A stretch of DNA of 64,000 nucleotides from positions 558,001 through 622,000 of the forward strand of contig NOWV01000017.1 in the NCBI GenBank assembly GCA_003344405.1, in the 5' to 3' direction. This document shows positions 19,001 through 62,314 of the stretch, piece by piece. The notes under the pieces were generated by a model. It was not told the origin of the DNA. It worked only from the letters and a program-made list of their open reading frames with translations, and ran no database searches. Source of the DNA: Trichoplax sp. H2 (taxonomy: Eukaryota). Every line of letters starts with the position of its first letter. The first letter of the stretch is position 1. Position numbers and translations under genes: made by a program.

Positions 19001-19840
19001 CGGCATCAATAATGACAAATTATGGCTATAATTTATCTTATTTATCCATGGCTCAGTCTTGCTTCATTATGACTATTTCATACACGAGGCTACAGCTATC
19101 TTAATTCCACAATTAGTACCCATCCGTTTAGACTATAAACGACAAGAAAACATTAAGTACTGTAAAGGAAAGTCAAAATTTGTTAGATTAAAATTTAGCT
19201 AAAACAGATCAAATTTTCTATTTTTTTTGTTTTACATTTATAAAAAGTAGGTTGATTATTAATCTATTGAAAGAGTGAGAGTATAGTGCTTGTAGTGCCA
19301 TGAAACCGATTTGATGTTCTAGAATTTCTTTATAAAAATTGTCTTCCATTGATTGGTTCATGTTACATTTCGATATTGATATCCAATTCATTTGTATACT
19401 TTCCTTTATATCCTTCGTCTCTTTCCCTAACTAACTATAAAATGTATAATTTTAACGTGTAAATTCATGAAATAATTTTGACTATCTGATCTCATCTACT
19501 TACCTACTACTTTTTTTATTATTGCTTGTAGAATCAATAATTCTGTACACACCTTCAATCTAATTTACAGAATCATAAATCAAATAATTCGTGAAATTGA
19601 GATTGGATCTTTCATAATTGGGAAGGTTAAAACCTTACCATATCGGTTGAAAAGTTGTATACTTTCTTCCTTCAAGATCATCATTAAATAATATTACGAC
19701 TATTCGCTGGTTACTTGTTATCCTACAGCGCTCATTTCAAATCATAAAAGAATAGGGTAGAATAATTATTTATTCTACAGTATAGAACACATCAATATCA
19801 AGAAAAAAGTAATTGCATTGGCAATAAAAAGCGCTAAATT

Positions 19841-22800
19841 ATGTCGTACTGTAATAAAACAGGGCTGCTATTGCCTATCTTGGACGAAAGCAACTGGAAT
19901 CAAGGTTTTCGTGGATTTCTCTATTTGGCTGGATTATTATATTCTTTTTTGGGAGTTGCTATCATTGCAGATATTTTTATGTGTGCTATCGAAGTTATTA
20001 CTAGTCAAACGCGACGAATTAAAATTTCCGATAAAGATGGCAACATGAAAGAAGTTGAAGTGCGCATTTGGAATGATACAGTAGCCAATTTAACCTTAAT
20101 GGCATTAGGTTCCTCTGCACCAGAGATTTTACTCTCAATTATTGAGATTGTGGGGAATAGTTTTAAAGCAGGCGATTTAGGTCCGGGTACAATTGTTGGT
20201 TCAGCCGCTTTTAATCTGTTAGTGATCACGGCAACGTGTATTGTGGCAATTCCTAATCCAGAGGGAAGAAGAATTAAAGGAATTAAAGTTTTCGCTGTGA
20301 CAGCAACATTTAGTATATTTGCTTACCTTTGGCTATACATTGTATTAGTTGCTCGTACGAAAAATATTGTCGATTTAACGGAGGCAATTATTACCCTATG
20401 CTTCTTTTTTGTCTTGGTCTTGATCAGTTATTTCGTTGATCGTAATTTTTTCTGTCCAAGAAAGGCCAGGCGAATCTCCGATACTGAAAATGGACATCTT
20501 GCTTTTGGTAAGACTTAAAACCACTGAATTGCTGTCTACTAATATAGCACGAATTCATCACCCTTGAGTTTTCCATTTGTGATTTATAACGTTATTTTAT
20601 TAAACGCTAAAGTAATAAGATCAATTTCGAAATGAAAAACTTTGCTTTTCCGGTGTGCCCATCCGATATATCCATTTGCAAGCTAATTAGCTACACAGAG
20701 ATTTCCTATTTTCATATGATTAATTAATTAATATTATGAATTCTATCAAGTTACTATCACGTTTATATAAATTTTTCTTTAAGGTTTTATCTTCGATAGT
20801 AATTTGTCTGTAGTTACTAATATTAGGCTAACGAATTCTTATAGAGTTTTCCACTTAGCTTTGATAGCAAAATGGCTATTTCCGATCATAATGCAAACTA
20901 GACTAACAGAATTTCTAATTCATTACGATTATTCTGAGGTAGCATTGTCAAGCATATATTAATCCTGACTCTACTAGTAAATATGTACTCATTTCAATGA
21001 TTCAGAAATCAAGCATTTATCAATCCTAGCTATACGACTAGCCCTACTTTATCCACCTTTTAGTAGTTATTTGTTTATCCAGCAATATCTTTAGCTGCTC
21101 CTATTAGACTGAAACTTTTCAAAATTCAGCCTATGATCTCTAAAAGTAGGAAATCCTAGCATATTGGGCTGCTATTTCTGGCAAAATCTTTGCATAAGTG
21201 TTTAAAATGAATCGAACAAACCATTTGTAGTCTGAATTTTTATCTCGTATGTACCCATTCCCAAAATTTATTCCGATTTTTTCAATGGAAATCCTAAATC
21301 TGACGCCATTTCAGTTTATTACAATGTAGACTTGTATTTACATAAAGGCACCCCTATCCTATACGTACCATTAATCATGATATATGTCGTCAATTAACAG
21401 CAGCCATCTAGAGAGTCTTATTTTTGCTAAAGATTTCATTTGCAACATTTTAAGTCATTTTAATTGATAAACCTACATCTACTTTGCCTTTTCACAACAC
21501 ATTCCATCATATTATACAAGACTATTTTTCTATACTGCGTATATTTTAATTTGTAATGAGATTCCCTTAGTTGTACAGCCCTGATATCGCAATTTGGCGA
21601 GTATGACTATTTCAATTACTTATAAACTTAGTTTTAAATAATGTATTAAACATTGATGCTCATAACTGGCATAGGTTCTACACTTTTAGTCCAGAATGTA
21701 AGCTATATAGAGGTTCATTTTTTTACTAGTTAAGACATTAAAACTGGCTATGCTAGTATTGACTTTATCTTGTTCTATCAAAGTTTATCGGCTATAAAAA
21801 CGGGACTGATATTGTCATGTTCAATAGATTTATTTTCCTTTTCAGATATACTCTATTATAACGTAACTTGAGCTAAAACAAGCTTAGTTCTGCTTACTAG
21901 CATTATTGAAAACGGTATCTCTTAATTGACTTTAAGTCTTGGCGTAACTTAAAATGGGTATTAATTATAGTTCACTGAGAATACCACACTAAAAATTCCT
22001 TATTGGGATTTTATTTATTGATAGATGATAGTACTGGTCGCCTTGTGCCTGATAGCTTTGATAAATCTTCGGCAAATTCCTTCTTGAAGGTAAATTTGAT
22101 GACGTTTCTGGATAGTTACGCTGCAGATAAACTTTAAAATTTGATATAAATGGCTTTTGCTTAGGCATCTATGCCTACATAAGCCTACAGTATTATACAG
22201 CACCTGATACATAGGTAGTATATAAATAAAGAACTAACAATTTCCCATTTTATCTCCCCAATCTTTAATCTTCAAGGCTGTTAAAACTAGAACTGATATT
22301 ACCGCAGAAGAAGCCGCAAAATTAGCTGCTGCCAAGTTACAAGAACAGGAGAAAAAATCTTATATTTGGTATCGTGTCGGAGCGGCTCGTCTGGTATCTG
22401 GATCTAAGCGTGTAACGCCATTATTAGATGCTCGATTGCAGAAGGTACAATGAACTACTTATTTAACTCTTTTATGAGAGTATTTTTGGCAGTATACTAC
22501 ACGTTCTAATTACTTTTGACTTATTAAATTCCTATATTCTACAACAACAGATGATAAACTGTAATCTAGACATGGTCGATTAGCTAGTTAATTTAACTAT
22601 AGTATTAGGATGATCATGAGTAACGTAGGCTCAGTTAAGAGTACGCAAAGTATGACATTGATGACAGGAGCGTTTAGTTAATACAAATATAAAGCACATT
22701 AGTACTTAAAAGTGATTAAATGCTCTTCATTCCAACTATTTGATCGTTAATACCACTATAAAAGCTACTCTGTCAAACCGTAATAGATACGTTCATTTTA

Positions 22801-25800
22801 TGACGATATAAAAGCCAATTCCCTGTCTTGAATGCCATTAGTTTACTTTCGATTACAAAGTTAGCACATAGCGCTTCAGTTTTTTTTCCAATTAATGCGT
22901 GATATCGTATTAATGTTCCTTTATTCAATAACTTAAAAGATTTTTGACGATATTGAAATGAAGAATAAGAAATTTTCTTCAACTGCCGATGTTCGAGACG
23001 ATCCAGAAAGTAAGATGTGGAAATTATTAGTAGTAATAATGTAGTGCATCAACATTTTCGAGCTAAAAATGTAGAGACAATTTATAACGGGTTTTAGTTA
23101 TAGATACGGATGTAAATTTAAGATATACGTCTCTCTCTATATAATAAATTAGTAAAATAGCTTCTAGTTAATACCATGGGAAATATAAATAGGGTATTAT
23201 ACAATAACGCAATTATTTCTACAAGATTATCGAACTGGACCAGGTGTTTTTAATTTATTCCTTCTATACAAAGTCATGCTGATTAATGAATAGACATACT
23301 GATAGTTTGAAGCAATACATCCATTATATTAAATTAAATTAAATCAATCTTTTACTTCATTTTACAACAGTAGTTAACTTAGGATATCAAATCTTATTCC
23401 TATTGCATTTTAATGGTAAGGAGACTGAATATTAATTATAGTGATTTATAATTGTCCTAGCTACAACACGAACCACTATCGAATTCACTACGGCTGCTTG
23501 TGCAGTTATGGAAAATGAAAAAATGGTCAAAGTTGGCATTTCAAGAACTGGAAAGCTGAACAACACAATTAAAGTGAGGTAGGTTGATTAAAGAATATTA
23601 CATTTTATTTCTAGTAACAATAATAAAATTTCTTATTTAGTCATTTTGATTCTGTATTAAGTATTTGCAACCTTACTCGATGCTCCGTCATAGTAATATT
23701 CTCAATCAATGAATACTAACACGTAGTTTATCACCTATATTTTGCCTTTTACTTGATCTAGTTAATCATAATCGATAATAATTCCTGCTAAGACTCTTAA
23801 CTAAAGATTCCATTTCACCCTTTATTACTTTACTGTCTTTTGAATTCAGAGCAATAGCCCATAAAAAGGCTAAGAGCTAATAATTAAGTTTTATTGTAGA
23901 CTGGATACATTTATAAATTTATATATTAAATCTCAGGTATAAATTTTTCACTTCTACCGTTATCAAAATATAATCTGAGCTTCCATCGGTGCATCTACGA
24001 AGATTGATTAGATTCACAATATAAAATTTGACATGAGCATTAAAATTGTATATGCAAATTTGTCGTTTTTACCTATTGCTAAAATTAGTCCAACCTTTCA
24101 TCATTACCGGTATATCAAGTAAATTAATCTGACTTATTGTGTAGATTTTGCTACAGGTATTAATAAGATTGTAATACAATACAGGCACAATACGACTCCA
24201 TAACATTAGTCGGTTGGATTCTGATAATATTATCATGATAGTAGTATAAGGTAGATGTAAAACGAGCAACTGAATATAGTATAACCTGATTTTAAATTCA
24301 ATTACAGATACGAAACATTGCCTGGAACTGCAGAACCGGAAAAAGACTATATACCACAAAATGATGTACTCGTATTTGAGCCAAACGAAAAAATTAAATA
24401 TGTAACTATTCCAATTGTTGACGACAACGAGTGGGAACCAGATGAAAATTTTTTCATTCAAATATGGCTAGAAGGGTCCTATGATGATGCCATTATTGGT
24501 GAAAAAAATTCAACTGAAATTACAATTATTAATGACGATGGTAAGCCCCTTGCAAGCATAGTATAAAAATCATCATAGTAATCATTTATCTCGTGGTTAT
24601 TTAATTTATATTGCAATATTAAGTGATCAATATCATGTGATTCAATTAGGCAGACTGTAATATCTGAGTCATAATGATGGATTTTGATTTATTTTATTAG
24701 AGCCAGGTGAAATTGCCTTTAATAAAGCTAGCTATTTATTTAAAGAAAGTTGCGGTACTGCTAAAGTTGAGATCGTTCGTAAAAATGGTAGTGATGGAAC
24801 TATTAGCGTCAATTGGAAAACAATTGACGGCTCGGCTATCAATGGCAAAGATTATCGAGGTGGTACCGGTAAAATCGAATTTCAGCATGGTGAAATGAGT
24901 AAATTAATCGAGATTCCTCTGATTGATGATGACATTTTTGAAAATGATGAAACCTTCCATATTGAATTATTCGATCCAAATGGTGGTGCAAAATTAGGTT
25001 CACGTACTAGAACAGCCTTAACTATTGTTAATGATGACGGTAAATAGAATAGGACGGATAAAGTATTTTAAAATAGTGCAATCGGTTTTTCCCATTGACA
25101 TAGTTCAATATAACATTGATCAGCTGTATGATATTTAGCTATAGAGTGATACCTTGGTCGCCTATCTTATTATGGTATTATCTTTTTCAATCTATTTTAT
25201 TAGTATATAATTCATTGCTGGATAAAGTTGTGGCGCTAACGCGTATTAATGTCCATCGTTTGAAACTGGGCTCTCAAAGTTGGGGAGAACAATTCACTAA
25301 TGCAATGACTGTTAATGGTGGTGATGTTGAGAATGCAACAGGAATGGATTATTTCTTGCATTTCCTAACGTTTGGATGGAAGGTAATTCAAAATAAGTTA
25401 ATTGACGAATAAGAATGATCAATCATAACTATTGCATACTACTATAAAATGAATTTATTAAGTTATATTAGAACCCATTCCCATAAAACTATTTTTTAAT
25501 CGAGATATTTTTATATTTAAAATATGGTTATTTTTAATTTCTTACCAATAGGTTATCTTTGCCATCATACCACCACCTTCGATGCTAGGTGGTTGGCTTA
25601 CTTTCATCGCATCGCTTGGCATGATCGGATTTTTAACTGCTATTGTTGGTGATTTAGCAGGCATATTTGGCTGTATTGTTGGTTTAAGAGATGCAGTTAC
25701 TGCCATTACATTTGTTGCATTAGGCACAAGTTTACCCGATTTGTTTGCTAGCAAAACAGCTGCTTTGAATGAAAAATATGCCGATAATTCTATTGGTAAT

Positions 25801-26269
25801 GTTACTGGTAGTAATTCGGTCAATGTCTTCCTTGGTTTAGGATTACCATGGCTCATTGCTACTATCTATTGGAATTCACAGGTATATCATAACGTTAGTG
25901 TTATTAAATGATAGAAAATTAACTTAGAATAGTACCTTTTCTCCTAGATGAGTGTTTTAAATTATTTTGTGATTTTATATTTCTTAACGTTGTTATTTTT
26001 CTTGCCTTTGGCTAATTTAGAATAAGGAATTCTCTGTTCCTGCTGGTAATCTTGCTTCGAGTGTCATTTTATTTACCATCTGTGCTGTCATTTGTATTGC
26101 TCTTCTAATGTTAAGAAGAATAATTCCATCCTTTGGGGGTAGCGAATTAGGCGGTCCAACCAAATCTAAATACATTTCTGGCCTCCTTTTGGTTACATTG
26201 TGGATAGTCTATGTTATCATATCATCATTACAAGTCTATCGCATTATTCCGCCCATAGTCAAAACCTAA
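19841..26269 (+). CDS. SLC8A: Na+/Ca2+ exchanger (SLC8/NCX family), ~10 exons
   Basis: Alpha-1 repeat [11 protein letters not shown] and [10 protein letters not shown] in exon 19841-20507. Two Calx-beta domains ([35 protein letters not shown]). [18 protein letters not shown]. Alpha-2 repeat [29 protein letters not shown]-terminal GSELGGP and TAA at 26267-26269. Exons approx 22025-22089, 22278-22444, 22940-23009, 23461-23578, 24308-24541, 24701-25039, 25204-25382, 25552-25881, 26021-26269. Confidence 0.95.
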
Positions 26270-28546: not shown

Positions 28547-30731
28547 ATGGCTAGCTCTTTGCCAGCAAGATTATTCTCCTGTTCTACCAAATCTTTCAAT
28601 AAAACTCATTTTTCCTCTCTATTAAAATGGATAACATATCAACGGTCTTGGCTATGTACTAGGTAAGTGATAAATTTTTATCTAAATTAGTTACGGCATT
28701 GGTTAATTTTCCAATATCCATTTATCCTTGGTCCAATAGTAGCTTGATCTTGCAAAAGAGTTCAAACCTGCTTGCAAGTAACCAACAGGATCCGTTGCAA
28801 CAATCTGCAGCAGCCGCTGATCTATCTGAACAGTTAGCTCAACTTGATGATTCAGTGGATAAGTAAATTGATATGTTGTACTATAGATTAATGTATCTGC
28901 TTCTATCTACCATAATGCAATTTCTAGTGCAGGTATATTAACCGATTGGATCCTATTATATCCATTTCAATTTAGCCAAATAGCACAAACTGAATCAGAT
29001 TCCAATGCAGAAAATCCGGAGAGCCAACTAGCAACGAGAAAGCCTAAAGCTGCTGATTCTCAAACTGGACCTACTGCAGTCAATGACCCTGTCGCTCAGT
29101 AAGTTATAATAATGTACAGAATTGTTGTACATCAGTTATCAACGTCACCCGATCCAGTTGATACTGATAGATGAAAAGTCTAATTGGTAACGCTGTGATC
29201 CAATACTGTAACGCAGTAAAATTGATCTCCATTTAATACTTATAAGTATACTACTGTAGTACCTCGATGGATATAGTTCGAACTACTTTCAATCTCTACA
29301 CTGTTTATTCAGAGCTAATGTTATTGTATGTCTGTTAACATTTTAATAGCAAATTTGTAAATTGTATGATGTATGATGGAAAGAAATCATTATCAAGGCG
29401 GATATTCAATGAGGTAGCTATCATAAATATCCCATTATAAATTAGCCTAATTTTATATCAGTCAAAGTAACCTCTTTGAATTATCAATGTTTTTCTAGGC
29501 GCTAGAAATGGTAAAAAAATCTCAGATTGAAAAGTACGTTTACCTTCTCTATTAGCCATTAACTGGTAGCATTAGTAGCACATAATTTAATGATTATTTG
29601 TAATCTTTTAATTTTCACAATACGTTGTTTAAATTAATTAAAGAGCAATCGATTCTTATATTTATATTTACAGTACACCAATGGAAATCTTACTGCTATT
29701 AATTCTTTTACGAATATAGTTTGCTTTTGTAAACTGAGCAATATTAAACTGCTTGCAATTGACAATCAAAGTAAATTTCCCAAAGTCTATAATGTCAATA
29801 AATTTCCATATCACAAAGAGGGCAACGTGTTTGACGTAATGTCGTAATATTGATGAGAGAAACAGTACATTGCGCTATCATGCCTAACGTATTTTGTTTT
29901 ATATACATTATTTTTTTTATTTTAATTGGGTATTTATATTTAAAAATCTTACAATATCCGATGCTGTAACTGTTAGGTATGGTTCAAATCCTGACGACTC
30001 AAATATTGTGATGAACCCTATGAAAATCTTTCATGGAGCAATTGATAACGCCAAACCAATTATTGGAGTACAAACCATCAAACGTGGTGGAAAATCTTAC
30101 CAAGTACAGCATAATCGAAGATATGATCACCTCACTTAGGAATTCATTGCTTTAATTAAATAAATACGATTTAGAATCAGATAGAACTAAATACAGTATT
30201 GCATGCCAAATGATAAGGTGTTACGTCGTAAAAATACAGTATATTGTATTGAGCTGTGCTCTTGTCCAACTTTAGGTACCAATACCATTGAAGGAGAGAC
30301 GTCGATATTTTTTAGCTATTAAGTGGTTTATTACTATAGCAAGGTCAGGAAAGGAAAACGGGATGTCAAAAAAGCTAGCCAAAGAATTTTTAAACGCCTA
30401 CAATAATGAGGTATATACTCGTATGTTTATAATTGATATTATTTGCACTTGAAGAACATACAAATACGTTATTAGATGGGATCGTTCAATGCTTACCCCG
30501 ATCTTGCATACCTAGAATATATAATATCTTCTATGCATTGAGTATGCGTACTCTTGCTTCAATAAAAGTTATTCTTTTAATGTGGTGCAATATTGTTTTA
30601 ACTGAGCTAAGCTGAATTAGTCGTAATACTTATGGATTTACATTATTTAGGGAGCAGTAGTAAAAAAGAAGATAGAATTACATAAAATTGCGGAATCAAA
30701 TAGAGCTTATGCGCATTATCGATGGTGGTAG
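28547..30731 (+). CDS. MRPS7: Mitochondrial ribosomal protein S7 (uS7m), 8 exons
   Basis: Ser/Arg-rich presequence MASSLPARLFSCSTK; KFVNCMMYDGKKSLSRRIF; AIDNAKPIIGVQTIKRGGKSYQVPIPLKERRRYFLAIKW; C-terminal KKKIELHKIAESNRAYAHYRWW* typical of MRPS7. Confidence 0.95.
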
Positions 30732-31576: not shown

Positions 31577-33435
31577 TTATACTATCAAACAAATTAATAA
31601 TGCAAATGTTAACAGTAACGTTTTATGCACGAATGATGTAACTGCAGATGAGACATAACCCATATTGGCAGGAATCGTTGTTGTTGGTGCTGTTGCATTA
31701 GGAAACGCTGAGCATTTGATACTACCCTTGGTAAATTGTAGTATGGACGAAGGCACACTAAAAATGGAAATAAAATCGCGTATGTTTAATTTCAAAGCTA
31801 TAAAATAGTCAATTTTTTTTTATATAGACGTATATTATTACGGATAATATCGGAATACATGCTTTACATAAATCTATTCTTTAAGTTATACTCAGATCAA
31901 GAAACAAAGGCTTAGAAACGATTAATTTCAAATATTTATACTGTAAGTGTGGCCATAAAATCATTTTTAATCTACAAAATTAGTATTTAGCCTTAGTTTA
32001 ATTCCTAACTTTCTTACCATGTTAGTGCTTTTTGGCAGTTTTGCTGATTTCCAGCACTCAAGAGTTCAGTACGATCGGCAGAACAGAAAGGAATTTCATG
32101 GCATCCGTAACTAAGCACTTTCTTAATGCAACTTTCCGATGCACCATTGGATCTTAAAGTATCAGGAACGTGTATGGCAATGACTTGAAGTTGACTTCTG
32201 TCATCATTAAACCATTCTGGAATGGTTAAATCTTTCGGCCTAGGTGGACAATCATTGCCATGAAAGTGAAGAGCTGACGTGGGCTTAATACACGCACTTA
32301 GATTATAAACTGATTTCTGCTCTGATGGCCGATGATAAGTACATTCTGCGGGAACATTAGAAGTATTGGAACATTCGCTGCGAAATTGAGCGCATAAGTT
32401 GGAAATATTGACATAAGTCAGAGTTGTTCTATCACTTGAACATTGCGGAAATGTTGCATTGCATTTAATTTGCTTGAAATAATTGGCGCACTTAATACCA
32501 GATTGCAATTCAACCTGACTGTGTGTAAAGATTGAACCCAATACTAACGCTTCTTTCTCACTTAATGTAAGAGTGGGAGTTGAAAAATCTGTCCCACAAT
32601 AATTTCCTACAGCTGCACTAGGGCTTGAGCACGAATTTAATTTACTATAAACGTAGACTCGCACATTATTTACCGCGCGTTTGGCAAGTTTTTCCTACAA
32701 AAGGATCGACATTAATTAAAATAAATATTGGTTGTGGGTAAATTATATTTATTAATGATGACATTGTAACATAGATTGAAATTAAAAAATTTTCGTTATT
32801 GGTAAATTAATATTACTAATGATATCTTTGTAAGTATAGATTGAAGTAAAAGGATTATTTTGTTGTTGTTGATTCGATTATTCAATTATCTTGTAAACAT
32901 GTGAATTGATTTATCGGTTCATAAATTATGGATACGAGAATATCACTTTCACTGTACGATACTCAATTGTATACAAATTATTAATTTTGTTTAATTCTAA
33001 TTTACAAGTTCAACTTTAAATTGGTTGTAATTAAAGAAAATAGGCAATGACAAGTTATGACTATTTAAATATATTCTGACAGCATAGCTACTGTCGCAAG
33101 ATGCTCTCAGTAGACATGCATGTACTTGGGCCGTATATGAAAAAGTAATGCTTTTACACTGTCATCTTTCATAGTATATATTAATCCAGAAAGGCTAATC
33201 TGCTGTACTCGTGTGATTATTGCCTAAAGACTTTCTATCTACACACTGATGTCTAAATGCCTCCTAAGTACGCGTATGTTGATCGTAGACTGAATTTTAT
33301 CCCATACTCGATGACAATTGAAAATGAGTTTTAATCTATGCATTTAAATACCTGTTCATAATCTTGATGCAAAGCATTTGTTAATGCAAAAATGGAGAAG
33401 ATTAGGGCCAGTGTTATCTTCATAAAGCTCTTCAT
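31577..33435 (-). CDS. Uncharacterised secreted, probably GPI-anchored protein (313 aa) with two tandem Frizzled-CRD-like 8-cysteine domains
   Basis: Exons 33435-33352 (MKSFMKITLALIFSIFALTNALHQDYEQ, signal peptide), 32694-32018 and 31757-31577 join in frame (phases 0 and 2). Two repeats of 8 Cys each, sharing CS(S/A)DRT; Thr/Pro stalk; hydrophobic C-terminal tail ending at the stop. Confidence 0.8.
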
Positions 33436-34086
33436 CTGTCTTGTTGGCTATTTGCTTATTTAATTTGGAAGGAATGTGTAATAATTAAGTAATTTAATGT
33501 GGTCCATAATGAAAATAGAAGTTAGTATTGATTATAGTCATTATCCATTCTGTATACTACGCCAGCTGGGCTTAATCTCCCGGTCAATTATCATGAATAA
33601 CTAGTTTACTTGGTGAACGTTCCCAATTCCGATACACTAACGTAAAAATCTTAGCTATCAAAGGATATTGAAGCTGACCGATATTATGGAATTTTAAGGC
33701 ATTAATTAATGTACTGTATAGCTTATTTAATATCCTCTATAAATCGATCGAGTGGTTGATCGTATATCAGTCTACAGTATTGTCAAGTAATCCAATAAAT
33801 AACGATTCACTTGATTTGTATACAACTTTATTTATGATTCCACGAATGATTGGGGGAAAAAATAGAATAATTCGTTTGATTTATAATTTACTTTTATTTA
33901 CCTGCGAGTTCTCTGGTCGATAAGTGGTTCTATCGTTTGTTAGCACATTGAAAATGGTTATCCTAATTGGCTGTGTCAACGTCTCCTATCAACCTAATCA
34001 GGAAGTTTTTTTTTTGGCTATGCCTCTATAGCAGCAGTGAGCCTTTCGCTGGAACTTCCCAAACGGAATCGTTCGTGATCTATGGT

Positions 34087-34100
34087 GGTGCTATGGCAAC
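34087..34100. promoter_or_regulatory. RFX X-box-like site GGTGCTATGGCAAC
   Basis: One mismatch from GTTGCTATGGCAAC, in the divergent region upstream of the Fz-like gene. A CCAAT (minus strand) lies at ~33966-33970 and a likely 5'UTR donor at ~33900. Confidence 0.4.
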
Positions 34101-34769
34101 GCCGTTCCCTACTGCTGTACAGTGTACAGTCTCATGTTTCATTCTACCGTACAATATTACCGTGTACAGGACTGTACAGTATGGATCAAATGGATAAGAG
34201 ATGACGATTTTGCTAGTCATTTTAACTGTAGTGTACGTCTGTCACCATACATTGTACTGTTCACGAGTGCATATAGGCATAAGCTGCTTGGATACACTGC
34301 GATGTATGGTTGCAGTCTGCCGGTATAGTAAACTAAGCAATAAAAAAAGTTAGCCTACAGTCTCTCTCTTTTATTGACTGTAATTTTTATAAGTTCCTAT
34401 GATGTACTATAATAATGTACAATACTTGGACATAGGACTACTAGTAGTCGTTGGTGCATCTTACTATATCCAATCAACTTGAATGATGTACTTGGACGTC
34501 GGTTCTTCTTTTCCAGGATCTCTGTAGACATTGTCATGAACTGCTAGCCTCGGACAGACAGACTTTTCTGATTCAATGAAGCTGTCATGATCGAAATTGG
34601 CTTCCTCTTAGTATAGATCTTCGGTGTCTGCTTTGTAAATCGCTGGTACAAATTTCAATAGCGTCTATGATGTTATAGAAGTGTTTTCAAGCGTAACTTT
34701 GTAGCAAACAATAAGATTGAATGTAATATTACTCAATTTAGAAGAAATCAATCCATTGAAAATCGACCA

Positions 34770-35890
34770 TCTACAGTACTGCTATAAAGACTGCAATCGC
34801 ACATCTTCCTACAGTACTGTACTGTACTGTACAGTACAGTGTACACTGCTACAGTACTGAGTACAGCTGGCGTCAATCATTTCTACTGTACTGTACTGTA
34901 CAGTACTCTGTACTCCAACCACAGAGGTACTGTACAGTATACTGTAGTACTGTACTGTACAGTGTACACTACTACAGTACTGAGTACAGCTGGCGTCAAT
35001 CAGTTCTACTGTACTGTACAGTACTCTGTACTGTACTCCAACGGGTAAGAAACCAGTATGACTCGAATTCATTGACAGTACAGTACAGTACAGGTCTGTT
35101 GAAAACTGATGTCATGGTTCCCAGTAGAGACCCTTTAATAGAGATCTCTGCAGGTTCTCTAGTTCCCAAGCTTCGGATATAGCAGATACTGTACAGCTAA
35201 ATCTTGGCACTGTAGTCGGACGGACTCCCAAATGACACTGTGATGAGTTACTGTACTGTATACCGTAATAACGTTGGCAACTGATACAGTACAGTACAGT
35301 ACTGTACAGTATGTCAGTTATCAGCCTTATACAGTACTATAACTTTTAGTTGCATCCTTTGTCTGTCCGTCCGGTCACAGTGCAAAGATTGATCTGTACA
35401 GTACACTAGTGTACACTGTACTGTAGAGTACTGTACTGTACAGTACAGTACAGCAGTCTAAAAGCTGTTAAAATCTGAAAATACTGTACAGTACAGTACA
35501 GTACAGTACTGTATGCTCAACTTAAACTGAGTACTGTACTGTACCGTCCGTGTACTGTACTGCACTTGCGCCTATTGTGAACATGCTTGAATGATAACAA
35601 TAGGCGCATTGATCAGTCTGATACAAAGTACAGTAATCGTTCGCGCGTTCGCTACAGTACAGTACAGTACTGTACTGTACACACATGAAATGAGGACGTG
35701 GCAGTCTGTAGGTCAGAACGTCAATCCACCTTCTCAAACAGTATTCGATGTACTATGCTTGTCTAGAGTAGCATCAAGTCCTCAACGGATTAGCTAGCCA
35801 AGCTGCAAATTGACATTTCAAACCTATTGAATCCAGTACTGACAGCAATACCCTATACTGTACACTTCCAAGGAGAGGAATGTACTGTAC
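34770..35890. repeat. Extended ACAGT/ACTGT pentamer-rich region with an internal ~120-bp direct repeat
   Basis: Many (tacag)n/(ctgta)n runs. CAGTGTACACT(G/A)CTACAGTACTGAGTACAGCTGGCGTCAATCA(T/G)TTCTACTGTACTGTAC...TACTCCAAC occurs twice (~34830-34919 and ~34950-35042). Confidence 0.85.
35187..35403. mobile_element. MITE-like element with 39-bp imperfect terminal inverted repeats
   Basis: 35187-35225 TACTGTACAGCTAAATCTTGGCACTGTAGTCGGACGGAC versus the reverse complement of 35365-35403 TACTGTACAGATCAATCTTTGCACTGTGACCGGACGGAC (33/39 identical). Non-coding interior; the outermost TA could be a TA target site. Confidence 0.5.
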
Positions 35891-36165
35891 ACAATCCAAC
35901 ACTCAGTAGTCCAGTGAATTGAAAGCAGTTTTTTCCCCCCCCCCCTAAAATGAAAATTTCACTGGAAAAAAAGAGAGCTTAAACTCCTTCAATGACTTTC
36001 CTTATTCTGCTATTGAAGCTGTAAAATCGACTAGTAGATCATTGAAAGCTCAATTTTATCGCCATTACTAGATATACACAGTGTAGAGAAACGAGGATAT
36101 ATCGTATCAAGTCCACAATAGCCTACAGTGACTGTCTACAAGAGCATCAATCAATCAATGTAGTG

Positions 36166-42100: not shown

Positions 42101-43636
42101 TCGAGCTTTCAAAGGACGGGTATTGGTTAAAGTTTGATCCCATAAAGACTGCAATCAGTATGTATATATATATATATATTATTCACATACTGACCACTAT
42201 AAAGTTCTGGCTGCAGTTTCATTTAAAAACTAACCTACTTTATTTTTAGAATACAAAACAACTCAGGATGATGTGGATGAATTTATTTCATGCTTACGGG
42301 ATGAAATTGTAAGCCCCTTATTGCTATTTTAATAAAACTTATTATATTTCGTATTCGCCTAAAATGGTATATAATTATCCAATAGTGATATCTATTCCAT
42401 ATACAGTTAACCCTTTACAAACTGATTCTACTTTGCATCGCATAGACGGTCATGAATGTTACAATTAATAGCAAATCTGAATTCGAAACAGCCATAAAAT
42501 CAAATAAGAGACTTAAATTAGCTGAGGTTCATCAAGTTACCGGTCTAGGCGCAGTTCAGTAAGAAACAAATGAATTTCTGTTTTAAATAACAAAATCTTC
42601 GATTATTTGAAAATGTTTAACTTTTACTTCTTTCCATTACATAAAAGATTTGTGCCAGAATATTTGGTTCATGATGATATAGATACCGTAAAACTCACCG
42701 ACCGGAAAAGAAGTGCTTTAAAGAAGGTAAATAGGCTATTGGCTGAAACTTTAGAAGAGCAAGATAAAGCCTTATTTGCCTTAGTAACGACAACGGATGA
42801 CTATCCATGTGTAGCTGTTGGAATGGTTCGTACTCACACATTTTAAATCTGTTAGCCTTTATCATTCATGAAGATAACCTTATTTTAAGTTTTTGACTTT
42901 ACTTAAACAATAAATATGCAAGAACTAATGATATACGCTTACTATTTGATTGTAATCGTGCAATAGATTTCACAACCTGAAAAGATACCTAATATTATTG
43001 ATACTATTATTCAAAAGGCATCCGAATTAGATGATAATAGCCAAGTTAGTTACGATTTATTATATTAATTAGTAGTATTGATGCTTTTCTCTCTATGCTA
43101 ATGGCTACATGGTACCTTTTTTCCTGAACAGTTATTAGAAGAGATGAGTGAATTAATAAAAAAGAGCATAGCTGCAACACAAGAAACGCTAAAACAAGAA
43201 GCGGAAGATTATTTTTGGGAAGAAGTAAATACTAAAGATCTTATGAGCTCTACTATTACGACCTTTATTTCTTGAATTTTGTTACTGTCAAACCACAACT
43301 AAAACATTACACATATATTGTAGGGTGTTTATCGTCAAGTGCCTCTCATCTCAACCGTAATGAACTGGTGGTCACCGCCAACAAAAACTGCAATCCCTGG
43401 TAGAACACTTAATTTATCGAAAGGTAATAGTATAGACTTGTGCACACTTTCGCGTATGCGTACGCTATTTAAAACTAGAGTAAAATTAGTAATTATCGGC
43501 TTGCTACAGAATTATCTAAAACGACTGCACGCCTCTTCTAATTTTATTTATATCAGGAACTGTCGAATCTACAGAACCTACTTATGAATTGAAAATGCAA
43601 GTGCAACAATCATTCGATGACGATAATAGCAGTTGA
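36166..43636 (+). CDS. PDXDC1: Pyridoxal-dependent decarboxylase domain-containing protein 1, multi-exon
   Basis: GHLAVLSRGLACYLASVLDKNQLTKLANRTTIDTNTWLSKIFRYEKGALYFHEE, PVIYISSAAP..LGKYLCSQLGLP, LCDKYNLWLHLEG, LSLWISMQYLG, GVYRQVPLISTVMNWWSPP, GTVESTEPTYE are collinear with PDXDC1 as I recall it. TGA at 43634-43636. The first exons (36166-36255, 37937-37995) are phase-consistent but less conserved. Confidence 0.92.
40923..41049 (+). other. U12-type (minor spliceosome) GT-AG intron in PDXDC1
   Basis: 5' site GTATCCTTTT, branch-like TTTTCTTTAAC (41016-41026), 3' CAG. Removal joins ..WPGVSYC to TLYRSSDSDA in frame, matching the PDXDC1 'TLYK' motif. Confidence 0.8.
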
Positions 43637-45599
43637 AATACTACATTAAAGAAATCATTTGGATGAAAAATTTAGTGTAATAGATCATAAAATATCATCT
43701 AGTGATAGAACGTGTTAGCGGTATGACTGATATATTTATGAACTTTTTGTTTCCTCTACTATATATTGATAGGTAAATTAAGAAATCACGATTTTATAGT
43801 CAGTTTAAACATTATTATTATATCAGGGTAAACGTCAGAGGTTGACAAAAATGCAAAATCGCAGCGATTAGTTTATTTTACGCTAACATTGACGTAAACT
43901 ATTGGATGTATAATTCAAAAATGACACTGGAAATTGCATAAAATCCTAAAATGTTTTAGACTTTATTTTATTTTTAAATATTTGATAAAATGTAGGGTTA
44001 GCTATTCTAATAATTATAAATTACAACTTGCGCAAAAGATTGATGTGCATTTGTTGAATTCTTTTATTCACAGTATATACGATTTTTAACATATGAATGC
44101 TGTACGTTTATATCATTAATTGAAAATAATAAAACTCTATTTCACTTTAAGTTCGGATGTTAGGTAGAAGAAATTATATTCATACATTTGCAAATTGATG
44201 AAACTAGTGTGCATTTTATTAATTGGATTATTACCTGTTTATTTAAAATTGGTTATATTTCTGCATTCCTTAATTGTTTCATCTGAGTTAGTAATAGAAG
44301 TAGAATGAAGTCAATACGATGAACGTAATATATGCGTGTATGTACGTGTAACATGAGACCTTGTATCGCTGAAGCAATGAAATTTTCAATGCTGGTTATT
44401 GCTAAACTATAAAATAGTATTCACCTTTACGCTAGTATATGGTGCATCACCCACCACATTACATCATCTTTCTTAAGCAGATACTATAGCAGGGTTATAC
44501 TAAGATAGCAGAGTATTAATTACGTGGTGTCAGATTAATTCAGTTATATATGTTGGCATTCAGTCCTTATTCCAAAAACAATTTAAATGATGTAAGATGG
44601 TCTTCTTACGTCCTATTAAACTGTAGTAATATAATTATATAATTTATTTGTAAATCATAGCATTCGGTCACTATTTTCTGAAATCTTTGCAGTACACTAT
44701 GATAAAACAGTAGCTGATTGAGATTCCTCACCCCCTACTGCAATTATTTTAGCCAGCTTGTTAAATCTACCTAGCATTTATGTACTACTTCAAATTATAG
44801 TAATACGGTAATTTTTGGTACATGTGATGTACTATCATAGTCTATTTACTGTTAGTGCATCCTCATATACTGTATAAGTATAACTTTACTGATTCGTTGC
44901 ATTCCATCATATTAAAAGTTGATTGAGCTGGTGTATTCGAATTTTGAATATTGGCACTTGATATGCACCTGTAGACACGATGCAACTATAGGGCAATGTG
45001 ACTGCTGTATATCCCTTGATTGTATTTACAGTTAGTTCGGATTGCTCTTTCAACGCAACAATTTTGCAATTATGTTTACGTATATGCTTATTAAAGTATT
45101 TTAAGTGTATGATAATAAAATTGAACTAACTATACCACCGTTCGATGAACGAATCACTCATCCCCTTCAATTAATTGTGTAGCTTAATTCTAGATTGGCC
45201 AATGCTTAAATTAGTATTATTTTATTACCAGTATATATTTTATTTGGATAAAGTTTGGCGTAGTGAAATAAGATTATAATGAAGAAACATAAGAAATTTT
45301 TGACACCTTTTGAAAGATGTGTAGTAAGTAAAATTTAAAATTTATAAGTATTAAGTCTGAACAAAGGATATTTAATTTAAAGCAAGTAGATTAATTAATT
45401 AATTAATAGTAATATTGTGAGTAAGCTTCCGATGAATTGATAACCTTACTAGTATAGTGTTCTAAACAGAACTTTCAAAGCTATACTAAACAGTACAAAG
45501 TGTAAAGGCGACGTCTTGCCTATTCTTGCCGTACAGAACCAATCTTATTGCAAGACTGCCTGCCCATGCGCGATGACTTTCAACTGAAAATCTGCAAAA

Positions 45600-60500: not shown

Positions 60501-62314
60501 TATCCATGATAATTAAAATAATAAAGAGCTTCTTTATATTTAACTGATGACTATAGTGTCTTTGTACGAGTAATGTGGTCAATAATATTTTTGCCTTCCG
60601 AGCATTGCGCAAGCTACATATACGAATACGTCTTTTAATACATTGCTGTCTTTATCAGAAGGATCATGTTAGGAAAAACCTAATAATCGATGAAGTTAAT
60701 GACGTTACACGATAGTCGCAATAATCAATGTAATAAGAAAATAAAACAGCTAAACTACTGGACAGTTAGAATTATACTATTGTGCCGTTTGATCAATTTT
60801 TCACTCGTCACGGCCATTTTTAATATACATGGTATAACATACGCGTAAAGAAGAGTTAATGATGGAAAGCTGAGTTGAATTATACCCACGAAATTTATTT
60901 GTGTGATATCTTGTTACTCATAGCTATAGTATTTGTAGAAACACCCACTCTGACATATTAAATCAAAATGGTAGCATGGGACTGATTACCGTATGGAATT
61001 TTACCATCTGTTTGTCAATAAAGTATATTAGCTTACTGCTGATCAGTCATTCTTCCATTTTTTTATAGTTTTTATATCATTTTCGCTACTTTGAGAAGTC
61101 ATGTATGCGCCCTATGATAGGCATTACATCTTGATAACCCTATTCATTATTCCATGACCCTCAGTTCAAAATAATAACCAGTTGTGTTTATGCTGTATGC
61201 AATATTTTCTTTAGTCATTCCATATTTTTCTTGCATAACAATATAATACTTGTTTTCAATTACGTACACATCGTAGAGACGTAAACGCTTTTAATTCATT
61301 AATTGCTATTGTTATGTAAATGTCATATAATTGCATATATCAAGATAAATGTAGGTATGTCTGTATAACTAATAGTAATAACATAATCAAAAAACATGTT
61401 TTCCATCGACAGTCCTAACATACTATGAGGGCATTGATACGGAATAGTTCGTAATATCTATGAAATAAACAAAACAACCTTTTATTGACCTTAACTGGTG
61501 TAGTTATAGACCTTGTGTAACTGGATATGATCATCATTCTGTCAGGCGATTGCCGTCATTAACTCATACCTACTCTTAACAAAATTATTATACGTATACC
61601 CAATATCCCCAACAGTACCTATCGATATTAAGATTGGAAAAAAATCTTCTTCTCAACTATCCACAAAAAAATCATCCAATTTCAACTTGTTATTAGGTAA
61701 CCCTATATTACATTAAAAAAATAATAAAAATAACGTTCAATTAAAGTATTTAATGCTAACTATAAAATATGATCAAAAGTGTAAAAATTTTTGATTCCAA
61801 TTATATTCATAATGTTAAATAGACTTTAAGTTCAAATTGTTGTTCAAACTAATCTACAAACTCTCTTTATCTTTCACCGTATACGCATTGATATCCATTA
61901 GCAGTATAGTTAAAATATCAGTATATATATATATCTATATATATGTATATATGAGGACAACGATATTCATAAATAACTTTATTTCTTTCATGTGATTAAA
62001 TTAGGTAGTGGTCGCACGCTGCTTATGTATCCACTCAGTGAAATCAGCTAATACTAATTATTTGGAGTATCATTGGCAATCGATTGCGAATATTACTAAA
62101 TTACGAAATTCTTAATCTTGAAACTATTAATATCACATTGAGAATATTAATTACAGTGAGTATTAAAAAAACTATAAGAATTCTCGTCTTTTATGACATA
62201 TCAATACAATATCGCCATTCATTAAAGACAGAAATTCAGTCAATTAATATTAAGAAGATTGAGACATAATTTGATCTAACCTCTTGAAGCTTCGGGTAAT
62301 CCTCTCTAACAAAT

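What the first reader, a model, noticed from the sequence alone, without database searches (positions are those of the whole stretch)
31577..33435. Surface protein made of two tandem Frizzled-like CRDs, each missing the same disulfide pair
Seen: signal peptide, a dibasic LAKR|AV site just after it, two repeats with exactly 8 Cys each (C..C..C-x8-C-x5/6[P-x-C]..C-x5/6-C..C, e.g. CANYFKQIKCNATFPQC, CAQFRSEC, CSAFP), shared CS(S/A)DRT, several NxS/T sites, a TAPTTTIP stalk and a hydrophobic C-terminus with no cytoplasmic tail. Established: Fz-CRDs have 10 Cys bonded 1-5, 2-4, 3-8, 6-10, 7-9 and bind lipids (Wnt palmitoleate, sterols). Inference: both repeats lack C6 and C10, one complete disulfide pair, so this looks like a folded, divergent double-CRD GPI-anchored protein. 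I recognise no family with this architecture (not sFRP, ROR, corin or glypican). It could be a lipid/Wnt co-receptor or decoy.
Basis: partly seen in the sequence, partly recalled or inferred. Interest (0 to 1): 0.75.

Follow-up and report, generated by a model that had tools for sequence, protein, structure and literature searches.

The report
Placozoan GPI-type surface protein, two Frizzled-like domains
This Trichoplax gene encodes a small cell-surface protein built from two divergent Frizzled-type cysteine-rich domains, and it belongs to an uncharacterised placozoan gene family whose members are switched on in different cell types.

Summary
Three minus-strand exons (33435-33352, 32694-32018, 31757-31577) splice into a 313-aa protein identical to the deposited Trichoplax sp. 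H2 protein RDD45316.1. It has an N-terminal hydrophobic leader, a KR site, two 8-Cys repeats, 5 N-glycosylation sequons, a Thr/Pro stalk and a 14-residue hydrophobic C-terminus.

The two repeats are homologous to each other (hhalign 95.4%). They are divergent Frizzled-type CRDs:
- Pfam Fz is sub-threshold for this protein but above threshold in 5 of 24 paralogues, in either repeat.
- All 21 PDB profile hits are Fz-type CRDs.
- AlphaFold models are confident, and the nearest solved folds are ROR2, MuSK, FZD and Smoothened CRDs. TM-scores are only about 0.5 and E-values are not significant.

No Cys occupies the canonical C6 position in 0 of 43 family members, and C10 is absent too.

The protein is not an orphan. 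At least 13 Trichoplax sp. H2 paralogues exist, and UniProt auto-names the T. adhaerens copies "FZ domain-containing protein". I found no paper describing the family. Single-cell data place the paralogues in different cell-type modules. Ligand and function, Wnt or lipid, are untested.

The parts
33352..33435 (-). Exon 1 (aa 1-28). It holds the start codon at 33435, the hydrophobic leader MKSFMKITLALIFSIFALTNA and the start of a short pro-region.
   Evidence: Translation. The spliced product is identical to P0005. The donor reads CAG|GTATTT.
33373..33435 (-). Predicted signal peptide (aa 1-21). It has a basic n-region, a 12-residue hydrophobic core and a T-N-A motif before the likely cleavage point.
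   Evidence: Read from the sequence by rule of thumb only. All full-length paralogues also begin with a hydrophobic leader.
32018..32694 (-). Exon 2 (aa 29-253 plus two bases of codon 254). It holds the KR site, all of CRD1 and most of CRD2.
   Evidence: The acceptor reads TTTTGTAG|G and the donor reads ATG|GTAAGA.
32677..32682 (-). Dibasic K33-R34 (LAKR|AV), a likely proprotein-convertase site 17 residues before the first Cys.
   Evidence: Among the 13 distinct H2 paralogues, 8 have [KR]R and 3 more have RxxR at the equivalent place; 2 have neither. The divergent unnamed clade has ERR|T or GKR|T there.
32341..32631 (-). CRD1 (C50 to C146), a divergent Fz-type cysteine-rich domain with 8 Cys.
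   Evidence: Pfam Fz scores 21.8 bits, E 3e-4, on this repeat alone. All PDB profile hits are Fz-type. The AF2 model has pLDDT 84.8, and the 18 listed Foldseek rows at ranks 1-21 are all Fz-type CRDs.
32018..32292 (-). CRD2, first part (C163 to the first two bases of the C254 codon).
   Evidence: hhalign of repeat 1 against repeat 2 gives 95.4%. The repeat 2 of paralogues P0042, P0054 and P0023 matches Pfam Fz up to profile position 109 of 110.
31712..31757 (-). CRD2, second part (last base of the C254 codon to C269, in exon 3).
   Evidence: The CLP...C-x2-FP motif is conserved in full-length paralogues.
31577..31757 (-). Exon 3 (aa 254-313 plus the TAA stop at 31577-31579).
   Evidence: The acceptor reads TTTCCATTTTTAG|T.
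31643..31711 (-). Stalk and candidate GPI attachment region (aa 270-292). It holds a NAT sequon, TAPTTTIP and the small residues S290-S291-A292.
   Evidence: Read from the sequence. A G/A-Y-S/T motif precedes the tail in paralogues.
31580..31621 (-). C-terminal hydrophobic run (aa 300-313), with no residue after it. This is a GPI-signal-like tail.
   Evidence: The best 12-residue window has mean Kyte-Doolittle hydropathy 3.22, and the protein ends there. The same feature occurs in all full-length H2 paralogues.

Best explanation
The gene encodes a secretory-pathway glycoprotein of Trichoplax.

Proposed maturation:
1. A signal peptide is removed.
2. A short pro-segment is probably clipped at K33-R34 by a furin/Kex2-type convertase.
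3. The C-terminal hydrophobic run is probably exchanged for a GPI anchor near S290.

The mature protein would sit on the outer leaflet of the plasma membrane. It would consist of two tandem, homologous Frizzled-type cysteine-rich domains on a short Thr/Pro stalk. Each domain keeps eight of the ten canonical cysteines. By homology these would pair 1-5, 2-4, 3-8 and 7-9, and the C6-C10 bridge is missing throughout the family.

The protein has no transmembrane or cytoplasmic part, so it can only work by binding something outside the cell. Two modes are open: holding or presenting a ligand for another receptor in the same membrane, or sequestering it. Fz-type CRDs characteristically bind hydrophobic ligands or lipid-modified proteins, so that is the most likely ligand class.

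The gene is one of at least 13 old, divergent paralogues in Trichoplax sp. H2. Each of those looked up is assigned to a different cell-type expression module, so the family looks like a diversified set of cell-type-specific surface binders.

Shown: the gene model, the repeat homology, the Fz-type assignment, the family, and the expression modules.
Inferred: the cleavages, the GPI anchor, the disulfide map and the ligand class.
For: Gene model: identical to the deposited H2 protein.

Repeat homology: hhalign probability 95.4%, E 1.9e-8.

Fz-type assignment:
- Pfam Fz matches 32 of 43 family members at E<=0.01.
- 5 of 24 members scanned reach the 32.1-bit cut-off (P0015 38.1, P0042 34.4, P0026 34.4, P0049 34.1, P0014 32.8). 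Best stretches fall in repeat 1 or in repeat 2.
- Family profiles hit only Fz-type CRDs in the PDB: 11 of 11 and 21 of 21, best Ror2/Nrk at E 5.1e-4.
- AF2 full-length model: pLDDT 86.7, pTM 0.75. Repeat 1 alone: pLDDT 84.8, pTM 0.78.
- Foldseek with repeat 1: the 18 listed rows at ranks 1-21 are all ROR2, MuSK, FZD or Smoothened CRDs, with TMq 0.32-0.52.
- Atlas features for repeat 2: the four best named cluster sets all carry Fz, with scores 0.75-0.80, which counts as a lead only.

Eight-Cys pattern: conserved across the family, with 0 of 43 rows having a Cys at the C6 position in either repeat. C7, C8 and C9 register with sFRP3 and FZD8.

Basic site: present in 11 of 13 H2 paralogues. Every full-length H2 model ends in a hydrophobic run.

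No longer or fused forms: the 36 hits among 1.84 billion representatives are 113-349 aa long.

Expression (supplement of PMC10580291):
- TrispH2_002323 is in module TrH2.yellow, annotated 'cilia' and active in multiple cell types, with membership 0.576.
- Paralogues lie in dorsal-epithelium, pan-epithelium, fibre, peptidergic-omicron and peptidergic-mu modules, and in three unannotated modules.
- Its placozoan orthology group has 4 rows. The three seen are T. adhaerens, H. hongkongensis and Trichoplax sp. H2.
Against: - Pfam Fz for this protein itself is below the curated cut-off: 17.9 bits against 32.1.
- No Foldseek match reaches E<=0.001 in either search. The best is E 0.29, and TM-scores sit at the 0.5 borderline.
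- phmmer of the single protein against PDB sequences finds nothing.
- Signal peptide, convertase cleavage and GPI anchoring are rule-of-thumb readings. No predictor or experiment supports them.
- Nothing here tests ligand binding.
- Module membership of 0.576 is moderate, and a 'cilia' module is not an obvious home for a ligand-binding surface protein.
- 3 of the 13 H2 paralogues (002101, 002102, 002105) are absent from the module table.
Confidence: 0.6

Rival explanations
1. It is specifically a Wnt co-receptor or decoy. The CRDs would bind the palmitoleate of Trichoplax Wnts, and the membrane-tethered protein would shape Wnt range or availability. This could stand in for antagonists that placozoans lack.
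For: - The domains are Fz-type.
- The closest sequence and structure matches include Wnt-binding CRDs of FZD4/8, ROR2/Nrk and MuSK.
- Dkk, WIF-1 and Cerberus are reported absent from T. adhaerens (PMC13128682, passages; PMC2959043, passages).
Against: - T. adhaerens is reported to have two Frizzleds and one Sfrp. At least 13 paralogues at only 24-31% mutual identity, spread over epithelial, fibre and several peptidergic modules, is more diversity than one small ligand family seems to need.
- No binding test was run.
- The Wnt paper I read in passages does not mention this family.
Confidence: 0.15
2. It is a cell-identity or adhesion molecule. The paralogue family would form a cell-type-specific surface code, with CRDs used as protein-protein recognition modules and no lipid ligand.
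For: - The 10 paralogues found in the module table fall into 9 different modules, and the 6 annotated ones cover different cell types.
- Old paralogues are kept as one-to-one pairs with sequences from a second, related genome. Examples are P0005-P0006 with support 100/99 and five further pairs.
- The proteins are surface-tethered and glycosylated.
Against: - Fz-type CRDs are not a known adhesion module (from general knowledge).
- Nothing here tests self- or cross-binding.
- The window gene itself is in a broadly active module.
Confidence: 0.15
3. The C-terminal run is not a GPI signal. The protein would be a type I membrane protein with a minimal anchor, or it would be secreted after C-terminal processing.
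For: No GPI predictor was available. The assignment rests on the small residues S290-S291-A292, a 7-residue spacer and a 14-residue hydrophobic end.
Against: - Fourteen hydrophobic residues with no following charged residue is short for a stable transmembrane helix.
- The same tail architecture recurs in all full-length H2 paralogues.
Confidence: 0.07
4. The resemblance to Fz domains is convergent. The repeats would be an unrelated helical, disulfide-rich fold that shares only a C-x8-C-x6-C motif.
For: Foldseek E-values are not significant and TM-scores are about 0.5. Pfam is sub-threshold for this protein.
Against: - Every significant or near-significant hit in three independent kinds of search is Fz-type and nothing else.
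- Five paralogues pass Pfam's curated cut-off.
- Motifs beyond the cysteines line up: Y-N-x-P/T after C2, P-x-C-x-x-D at C5, and C-x2-F-P at C9.
Confidence: 0.03

Closest known systems
Frizzled / sFRP cysteine-rich domain (Pfam PF01392 Fz; structures of FZD8, FZD4, sFRP3)
   Same: - Helical CRD.
- Cysteines C1-C5 and C7-C9 are in register.
- Shared motifs after C2, at C5 (P-x-C-x-x-D) and at C9 (C-x2-F-P).
- These are the nearest solved folds.
   Different: - Eight rather than ten cysteines; the C6-C10 pair is absent family-wide.
- Two domains in tandem.
- No 7TM domain (Frizzled) and no NTR domain (sFRP).
- A GPI-type tail.
- Pfam score below the cut-off for this protein.
ROR2 / Drosophila Nrk and MuSK Fz-like CRDs
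   Same: These are the best-scoring relatives. By sequence profile, Nrk 7me4 scores E 5.1e-4 and MuSK E 0.016. By fold, ROR2 9fse ranks first and MuSK 3hkl has probability 0.75 and TMq 0.50.
   Different: Those CRDs sit in receptor tyrosine kinases with Ig and Kringle domains and a kinase. None of these is present here; Pfam finds only Fz. They also keep ten cysteines (recalled, not tested).
Corin (two Fz CRDs in one chain)
   Same: Two Fz-type CRDs in one polypeptide (recalled).
   Different: Corin is a large type II transmembrane serine protease with LDLa and SR domains between and after the CRDs (recalled). Here the CRDs are adjacent, no other Pfam domain is found and the protein is only 313 aa.
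RECK (GPI-anchored protein with an Fz-like CRD, a Wnt7 co-receptor)
   Same: Precedent for a GPI-anchored protein that carries an Fz-like domain and acts as a non-signalling Wnt co-receptor (recalled). An Fz/RECK cluster appears among the feature-based leads for repeat 2, with score 0.75.
   Different: RECK is about 970 aa with cysteine-knot, EGF-like and Kazal modules (recalled). None is detected here.
Folate receptor / Juno family (GPI-anchored, 16 Cys)
   Same: Similar size, GPI anchoring and 16 ectodomain cysteines (recalled). A Folate_rec cluster is a weak feature-based lead, with score 0.83.
   Different: There is no Pfam Folate_rec match even at E<=10. Juno 5f4q aligns with TMq 0.19 only. 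Here the 16 cysteines come from an internal 8+8 duplication.

Membership tests
Fz-type CRD (Pfam PF01392 / Frizzled-sFRP-ROR-MuSK-Smoothened CRD superfamily) | Significant match to the family profile | tested here: inconclusive
   - This protein scores 17.9 bits, E 0.0048, against a cut-off of 32.1. Repeat 1 alone scores 21.8 bits.
- 32 of 43 family members match at E<=0.01.
- 5 of 24 members scanned pass the cut-off, in repeat 1 or repeat 2.
- Family profiles hit only Fz-type chains in the PDB: 11 of 11 and 21 of 21, best E 5.1e-4.
Fz-type CRD superfamily | Mainly helical CRD fold superposable on FZD8 or sFRP3 | tested here: met
   - AF2 models have pLDDT 86.7 and 84.8.
- For repeat 1, the 18 listed Foldseek rows at ranks 1-21 are all Fz-type CRDs with TMq 0.32-0.52.
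- For the whole protein, 12 of the top 20 are Fz-type.
- Caveat: no match reaches E<=0.001, and the models are predictions.
Fz-type CRD superfamily | Ten conserved cysteines forming five disulfides (1-5, 2-4, 3-8, 6-10, 7-9) | tested here: not met
   - Each repeat has eight cysteines.
- The Fz C6 position faces a non-Cys column in the sFRP3, FZD8 and Nrk alignments.
- 0 of 43 rows have a Cys between C5 and C7 in either repeat.
- No conserved Cys follows C9 of repeat 2.
- The connectivity of the remaining eight is inferred, not checked.
Fz-type CRD superfamily | Hydrophobic groove that binds a lipid or the acyl chain of Wnt | not testable with these tools
Secreted Frizzled-related proteins | One Fz CRD followed by a netrin-like (NTR) domain; secreted | tested here: not met
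   Pfam finds no NTR domain at E<=10. There are two CRDs and a hydrophobic C-terminus.
ROR / MuSK receptor kinases | Ig and Kringle domains, a transmembrane helix and a tyrosine kinase | tested here: not met
   Only Fz is found by Pfam. The protein ends at residue 313 with no cytoplasmic part. No family relative is longer than 349 aa among the 36 hits.
Folate receptor family | Match to Folate_rec (PF03024) and the folate-receptor fold | tested here: not met
   There is no Pfam match at E<=10. Juno aligns with TMq 0.19.
Mid1 / NALF (FAM155) cysteine-rich region | Match to Mid1 (PF12929) and the FAM155A fold | tested here: not met
   Only 1 of 43 members (P0036) matches, at 18.4 bits against a cut-off of 28.6. 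FAM155A 7sx3_B aligns with TMq 0.21.
GPI-anchored proteins | N-terminal signal peptide plus a C-terminal signal (small omega to omega+2 residues, a polar spacer, a terminal hydrophobic run) | tested here: inconclusive
   By eye all elements are present: S290-S291-A292, a 7-residue spacer, and a 14-residue hydrophobic end with KD 3.22. They recur in the paralogues. No dedicated predictor was available and there is no experiment.

The most novel reading that the evidence does not exclude
Placozoans evolved their own family of membrane-tethered tandem Frizzled-type CRD proteins. At least 13 paralogues would be deployed one per cell type. They would act as a cell-type-specific code of sinks or co-receptors for Wnts or other lipid-modified or lipidic signals. 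In an animal that lacks Dkk, WIF-1 and Cerberus, they would be the main extracellular layer shaping morphogen and lipid-signal range.
Probability: 0.12. Interest if true: 0.75.

Novelty: new variant of a known kind. Interest (0 to 1): 0.5.

Why it matters
Fz-type CRDs are the modules through which animals read Wnts, Hedgehog-pathway sterols and other lipids. Placozoans have a small Wnt toolkit: T. adhaerens is reported to have two Frizzleds, one Sfrp and no Dkk, WIF-1 or Cerberus (PMC13128682, passages).

A lineage-specific family with these traits has no described counterpart in the papers I searched:
- convertase-processed, GPI-type, tandem 8-Cys CRD proteins;
- old enough to be kept one-to-one in several placozoan species;
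- members expressed in different cell types.

If these proteins bind Wnts or lipids, they would show an independent route to extracellular control of lipid-linked signals in one of the simplest animals. If they bind something else, they would extend what this fold is used for.

The finding also corrects a truncated T. adhaerens gene model.

Tried and rejected
- phmmer of exon 2 and of paralogue P0042 against PDB sequences found nothing. Only family profiles reach the PDB.
- The search for homologous proteins with the family profile returned only 3 family members. With the divergent member P0036 it returned only unnamed relatives. The origin of that clade, and whether it lies outside Placozoa, stays open.
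- tblastn of the protein against the window found no paralogue in the 64 kb.
- The Atlas structure-based search was uninformative, because the Atlas's own model has pLDDT only 0.69.
- The Atlas top feature hits for the whole protein were unnamed clusters with scores 0.87-0.91. I treated them as leads only and did not follow them.
- Rfam and tRNA scans of the window found nothing.
- Literature: no paper holds TRIADDRAFT_53619 or TrispH2_002323. Searches for Trichoplax with Frizzled and cysteine-rich domain (14 papers), placozoa with Fz domain (3 papers) and Trichoplax with sFRP and Wnt (21 papers) turned up no description of this family in the listings and passages I read. The 8 papers holding '53619' together with Trichoplax were not opened; by their titles the match looks like a chance number.
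- 'OG_8542' in supplement file 1 of PMC10580291 lists 28 species including human. It belongs to a different orthology run (phylogenomic markers) from the placozoan orthology table, and I did not equate the two.
- I considered and rejected GDNF-receptor/GAS1-type, CFEM and Ly6 domains from memory of their cysteine patterns. No tool hit pointed to them.

- tBLASTn in cnidarian, sponge or ctenophore genomes.
- SignalP or a GPI predictor.
- Reading disulfide distances from model coordinates.
- RNA-seq junction counts.
- Complex prediction was not used, because no protein-protein binding is claimed.
Full report
**What is there**

The window is AT-rich eukaryotic DNA, with 28-41% GC per 2-kb bin. 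On the minus strand, three exons (33435-33352, 32694-32018, 31757-31577) have GT/AG introns and splice into a 942-nt reading frame. Its 313-aa product is identical to P0005 (RDD45316.1, 'hypothetical protein TrispH2_002323', Trichoplax sp. H2).

The T. adhaerens counterpart is P0004 (TRIADDRAFT_53619, UniProt B3RPQ1, 199 aa). It is a truncated model with a different N-terminus, and it ends in a Trp produced by reading through the exon-2 donor. It differs at one residue in the shared part.

- A hydrophobic leader.
- K33-R34 in LAKR|AV.
- Sixteen ectodomain cysteines in two sets of eight with near-identical spacing.
- CSSDRT and CSADRT.
- Five NxS/T sequons.
- A TAPTTTIP stalk.
- A 14-residue hydrophobic end with nothing behind it.

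**It is a family, not an orphan**

phmmer against 1.84 billion representatives gave 36 hits at E<=1e-3, of which 22 were at E<=1e-10. All are 113-349 aa long.

I looked up 20 of the 36:
- 12 are Trichoplax clusters. Eleven T. adhaerens entries across the look-ups, counting the window gene's own counterpart B3RPQ1, carry the automatic UniProt name 'FZ domain-containing protein'. Two are called 'Expressed protein'.
- 8 come from unnamed ENA, Logan or JGI contigs.
- The other 16 were not looked up.

Together with the window gene this makes 13 distinct Trichoplax sp. H2 loci:
- Five lie on one contig (002101, 002102, 002105-002107).
- Three lie on a second contig (010507, 010511, 010513).
- Two are adjacent on a third (011256, 011257).
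- The window gene has no paralogue within its 64 kb.

In the 43-row alignment A1, paralogues are 18-32% identical to the window protein, and its likely orthologue P0006 is 61% identical. The 16 cysteine columns are Cys in 29 of 32 to 42 of 43 spanning rows. The tail Cys310 is Cys in 2 of 23.

A tree was built from 38 of the 43 rows over residues 86-253. P0014, P0021, P0028, P0029 and P0033 were dropped as too short. The tree pairs unnamed sequences one-to-one with Trichoplax paralogues: P0005-P0006 with support 100/99, plus P0053-P0022, P0008/44-P0016, P0011/48-P0025, P0023-P0039 and P0015-P0026. So the paralogues are old and retained.

A long-branch clade (P0036, P0040, with P0055-P0057 found later) has the same leader, basic site, two repeats and exon end. 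Its origin is unknown.

**The repeats are divergent Frizzled-type CRDs**

Repeat 1 and repeat 2 profiles align with probability 95.4%, E 1.9e-8, over 90 columns with the cysteines in register.

Sequence evidence:
- Pfam Fz is sub-threshold for this protein: 17.9 bits overall and 21.8 bits for repeat 1 alone, against a cut-off of 32.1. The exon-2 part of repeat 2 gives no hit.
- Pfam Fz matches 32 of 43 members at E<=0.01.
- It passes the cut-off in 5 of 24 scanned members.
- Best stretches lie in repeat 2 for P0042 (profile 7-109 of 110), P0054 and P0023. Three of the 24 (P0047, P0040, P0012) had no hit.
- Family profiles hit only Fz-type CRD chains in the PDB: 11 of 11 with A1 and 21 of 21 with A2, best Ror2/Nrk 7me4 at E 5.1e-4.

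Structural evidence:
- AlphaFold2 with the family alignment gave pLDDT 86.7 and pTM 0.75 for the whole protein. Repeat 1 alone gave pLDDT 84.8 and pTM 0.78.
- Foldseek against the PDB gave no match at E<=0.001 in either case.
- For repeat 1, the 18 listed rows at ranks 1-21 are all ROR2, MuSK, FZD4/5/7/8/10/3/2 or Smoothened CRDs, with TMq 0.32-0.52. The MuSK hit has probability 0.75.
- For the whole model, 12 of the top 20 are Fz-type.
- FAM155A (TMq 0.21) and Juno (TMq 0.19) are far weaker.

I read this as a real but distant membership of the Fz-type CRD superfamily.

**The missing disulfide**

In the HMMER alignments to sFRP3, FZD8 and Nrk, family C97, C106 and C113 fall on Fz C3, C4 and C5. 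C129 and C136 fall on C7 and C8, and Fz C6 faces a non-Cys column. In the sFRP3 and FZD8 alignments, C146 falls on C9.

No family row (0 of 43) has a Cys between C5 and C7 in either repeat. After C9 of repeat 2 only 4 of 43 rows have a stray, unconserved Cys.

One caution applies. In the same sFRP3 and FZD8 alignments C163 falls on Fz C10. I assign it to C1 of repeat 2 for three reasons:
- The repeat-to-repeat alignment puts it on C50.
- The L-x-x-C-x-x-P context matches.
- The assignment gives each repeat an even number of cysteines.

The pairing 1-5, 2-4, 3-8, 7-9 is therefore an inference from the canonical map (recalled from the FZD8/sFRP3 structure work). It was not read from coordinates, which I could not access.

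**Processing and anchoring (inferred)**

A [KR]R site lies 15-25 residues before C1 in 8 of the 13 H2 paralogues. RxxR occurs there in 3 more (RKLR, RLTR, RQIR), and 2 lack a clear site (KQRE, AKKD). Several paralogues have a 40-60-residue helical segment between the leader and this site. This points to a convertase-removed propeptide.

All full-length H2 models end in a hydrophobic run, usually preceded by G/A-Y-S/T and small residues. In the window protein, S290-S291-A292, a 7-residue spacer and a 14-residue tail fit the usual GPI signal.

The paralogue conservation of the exon-3-encoded C-L/V-P...C-x2-F-P...tail also argues for the 31757 acceptor over the 31797 one.

**Expression (supplements of PMC10580291; I saw search hits in files 1, 3, 4 and 5 and part 1 of file 3, not the main text)**

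The gene sits in a placozoan orthology group of four rows. Those seen are Tadh_TriadG53619, Hhon_g01517.t1 and TrH2_TrispH2_002323. It belongs to module TrH2.yellow with membership 0.576. That module is annotated 'cilia' and is active in multiple cell types.

No gene name or Pfam architecture is given for it or for its paralogues.

| H2 paralogue | Module | Annotation | Membership |
|---|---|---|---|
| 002889 | brown | dorsal epithelium | 0.766 |
| 011257 | tan | pan-epithelial | 0.736 |
| 010507 | blue | fibre | 0.568 |
| 002106 | cyan | peptidergic omicron | 0.666 |
| 011256 | lightgreen | peptidergic mu | 0.924 |
| 002107 | lavenderblush3 | not in annotation sheet | 0.609 |
| 004609 | lavenderblush3 | not in annotation sheet | 0.581 |
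| 010511 | plum1 | not in annotation sheet | 0.798 |
| 010513 | honeydew1 | not in annotation sheet | 0.97 |

Paralogues 002101, 002102 and 002105 are not in the table.

**Surroundings**

Neighbouring genes look unrelated in function:
- A Na+/Ca2+ exchanger on the + strand at about 19.8-26.3 kb.
- A ribosomal S7-type exon at 29.9-30.1 kb.
- A PDXDC1-like exon at 42.6 kb.
- Coilin at 45.6 kb.
- A C2H2 zinc-finger ORF at 62.3-63.9 kb.

There are no Rfam or tRNA hits.

**How it most likely works**

Without a membrane-spanning or cytoplasmic part, the mature protein can only bind something at the cell surface. Fz-type CRDs bind lipids or lipid-modified ligands. I therefore favour a tethered binder of a hydrophobic or lipid-linked ligand that acts as a co-receptor or a sink. 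I hold this loosely.

A Wnt-specific role is possible. T. adhaerens is reported to lack Dkk, WIF-1 and Cerberus (PMC13128682, passages). An older survey found none of the known antagonists (PMC2959043, passages). Later work reports one sFRP (PMC3516229 and PMC13128682, passages). However, thirteen divergent paralogues across many cell types suggest a broader or different ligand range, or a recognition function.

**Novelty**

The sequence and an automatic 'FZ domain' label are already public. The new points, as far as my searches go, are:
- the tandem 8-Cys architecture with family-wide loss of the C6-C10 pair;
- the convertase site and the GPI-type tail;
- the size and age of the family;
- its cell-type-partitioned expression.

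bioRxiv supplements were closed, and subscription papers are outside the library, so an existing description cannot be excluded.

Noticed in passing
window 32014-32020 (exon 2 donor); P0004 and many family records: The exon-2 donor reads TG|GTAA. Read-through therefore gives Trp followed by a stop. The T. adhaerens model P0004 and most unnamed family records end in exactly this 'W'. They are truncated single-exon predictions, and the phase-2 intron position is conserved across the family, including the divergent clade.
   Followed up: partly
proteins P0036, P0040, P0055-P0057 (unnamed ENA and JGI contigs): This is a long-branch sister clade (support 100/99). It has the same leader, basic site, two 8-Cys repeats and exon end, but a different amino-acid make-up. 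Its organism of origin is unknown, so whether the family reaches beyond known placozoans is open.
   Followed up: partly
window 19838-26266, + strand: A multi-exon Na+/Ca2+ exchanger gene. It has two Na_Ca_ex membrane domains (E 3.6e-20 and 7.1e-22) and a Calx-beta domain (E 4.4e-26).
   Followed up: no
window 62300-63874, + strand: A single uninterrupted 525-aa open frame with a C-terminal array of C2H2 zinc fingers (zf-C2H2 E 2e-30). This is unusually long for an exon in this window.
   Followed up: no
window 29888-30136, 42574-42843 and 45588-45863, + strand: Exons matching ribosomal protein S7p/S5e (E 1.3e-6), the PDXDC1-like central domain (E 1.4e-8) and the coilin N-terminus (E 4.6e-24).
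   Followed up: no
window 34001-36000: This is the GC-richest bin of the window (0.407, against about 0.31 elsewhere). It lies just upstream of the gene's start on the other strand and holds open frames of 95-140 aa (34041-35182, +) with no Pfam match.
   Followed up: partly
supplement file 1 of PMC10580291, row for 'OG_8542': An orthogroup with the same label as the gene's placozoan orthogroup lists 28 species including human. It appears to come from a separate orthology run for phylogenomic markers. If it were the same group, the family would have bilaterian orthologues that my sequence searches did not see.
   Followed up: partly
paralogue proteins P0008, P0046, P0011, P0047 (N-terminal 40-60 residues after the leader): Several paralogues carry a long, probably helical pro-segment between the signal peptide and the basic site. 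In the window protein this segment is only about 13 residues. Its role is unknown.
   Followed up: no
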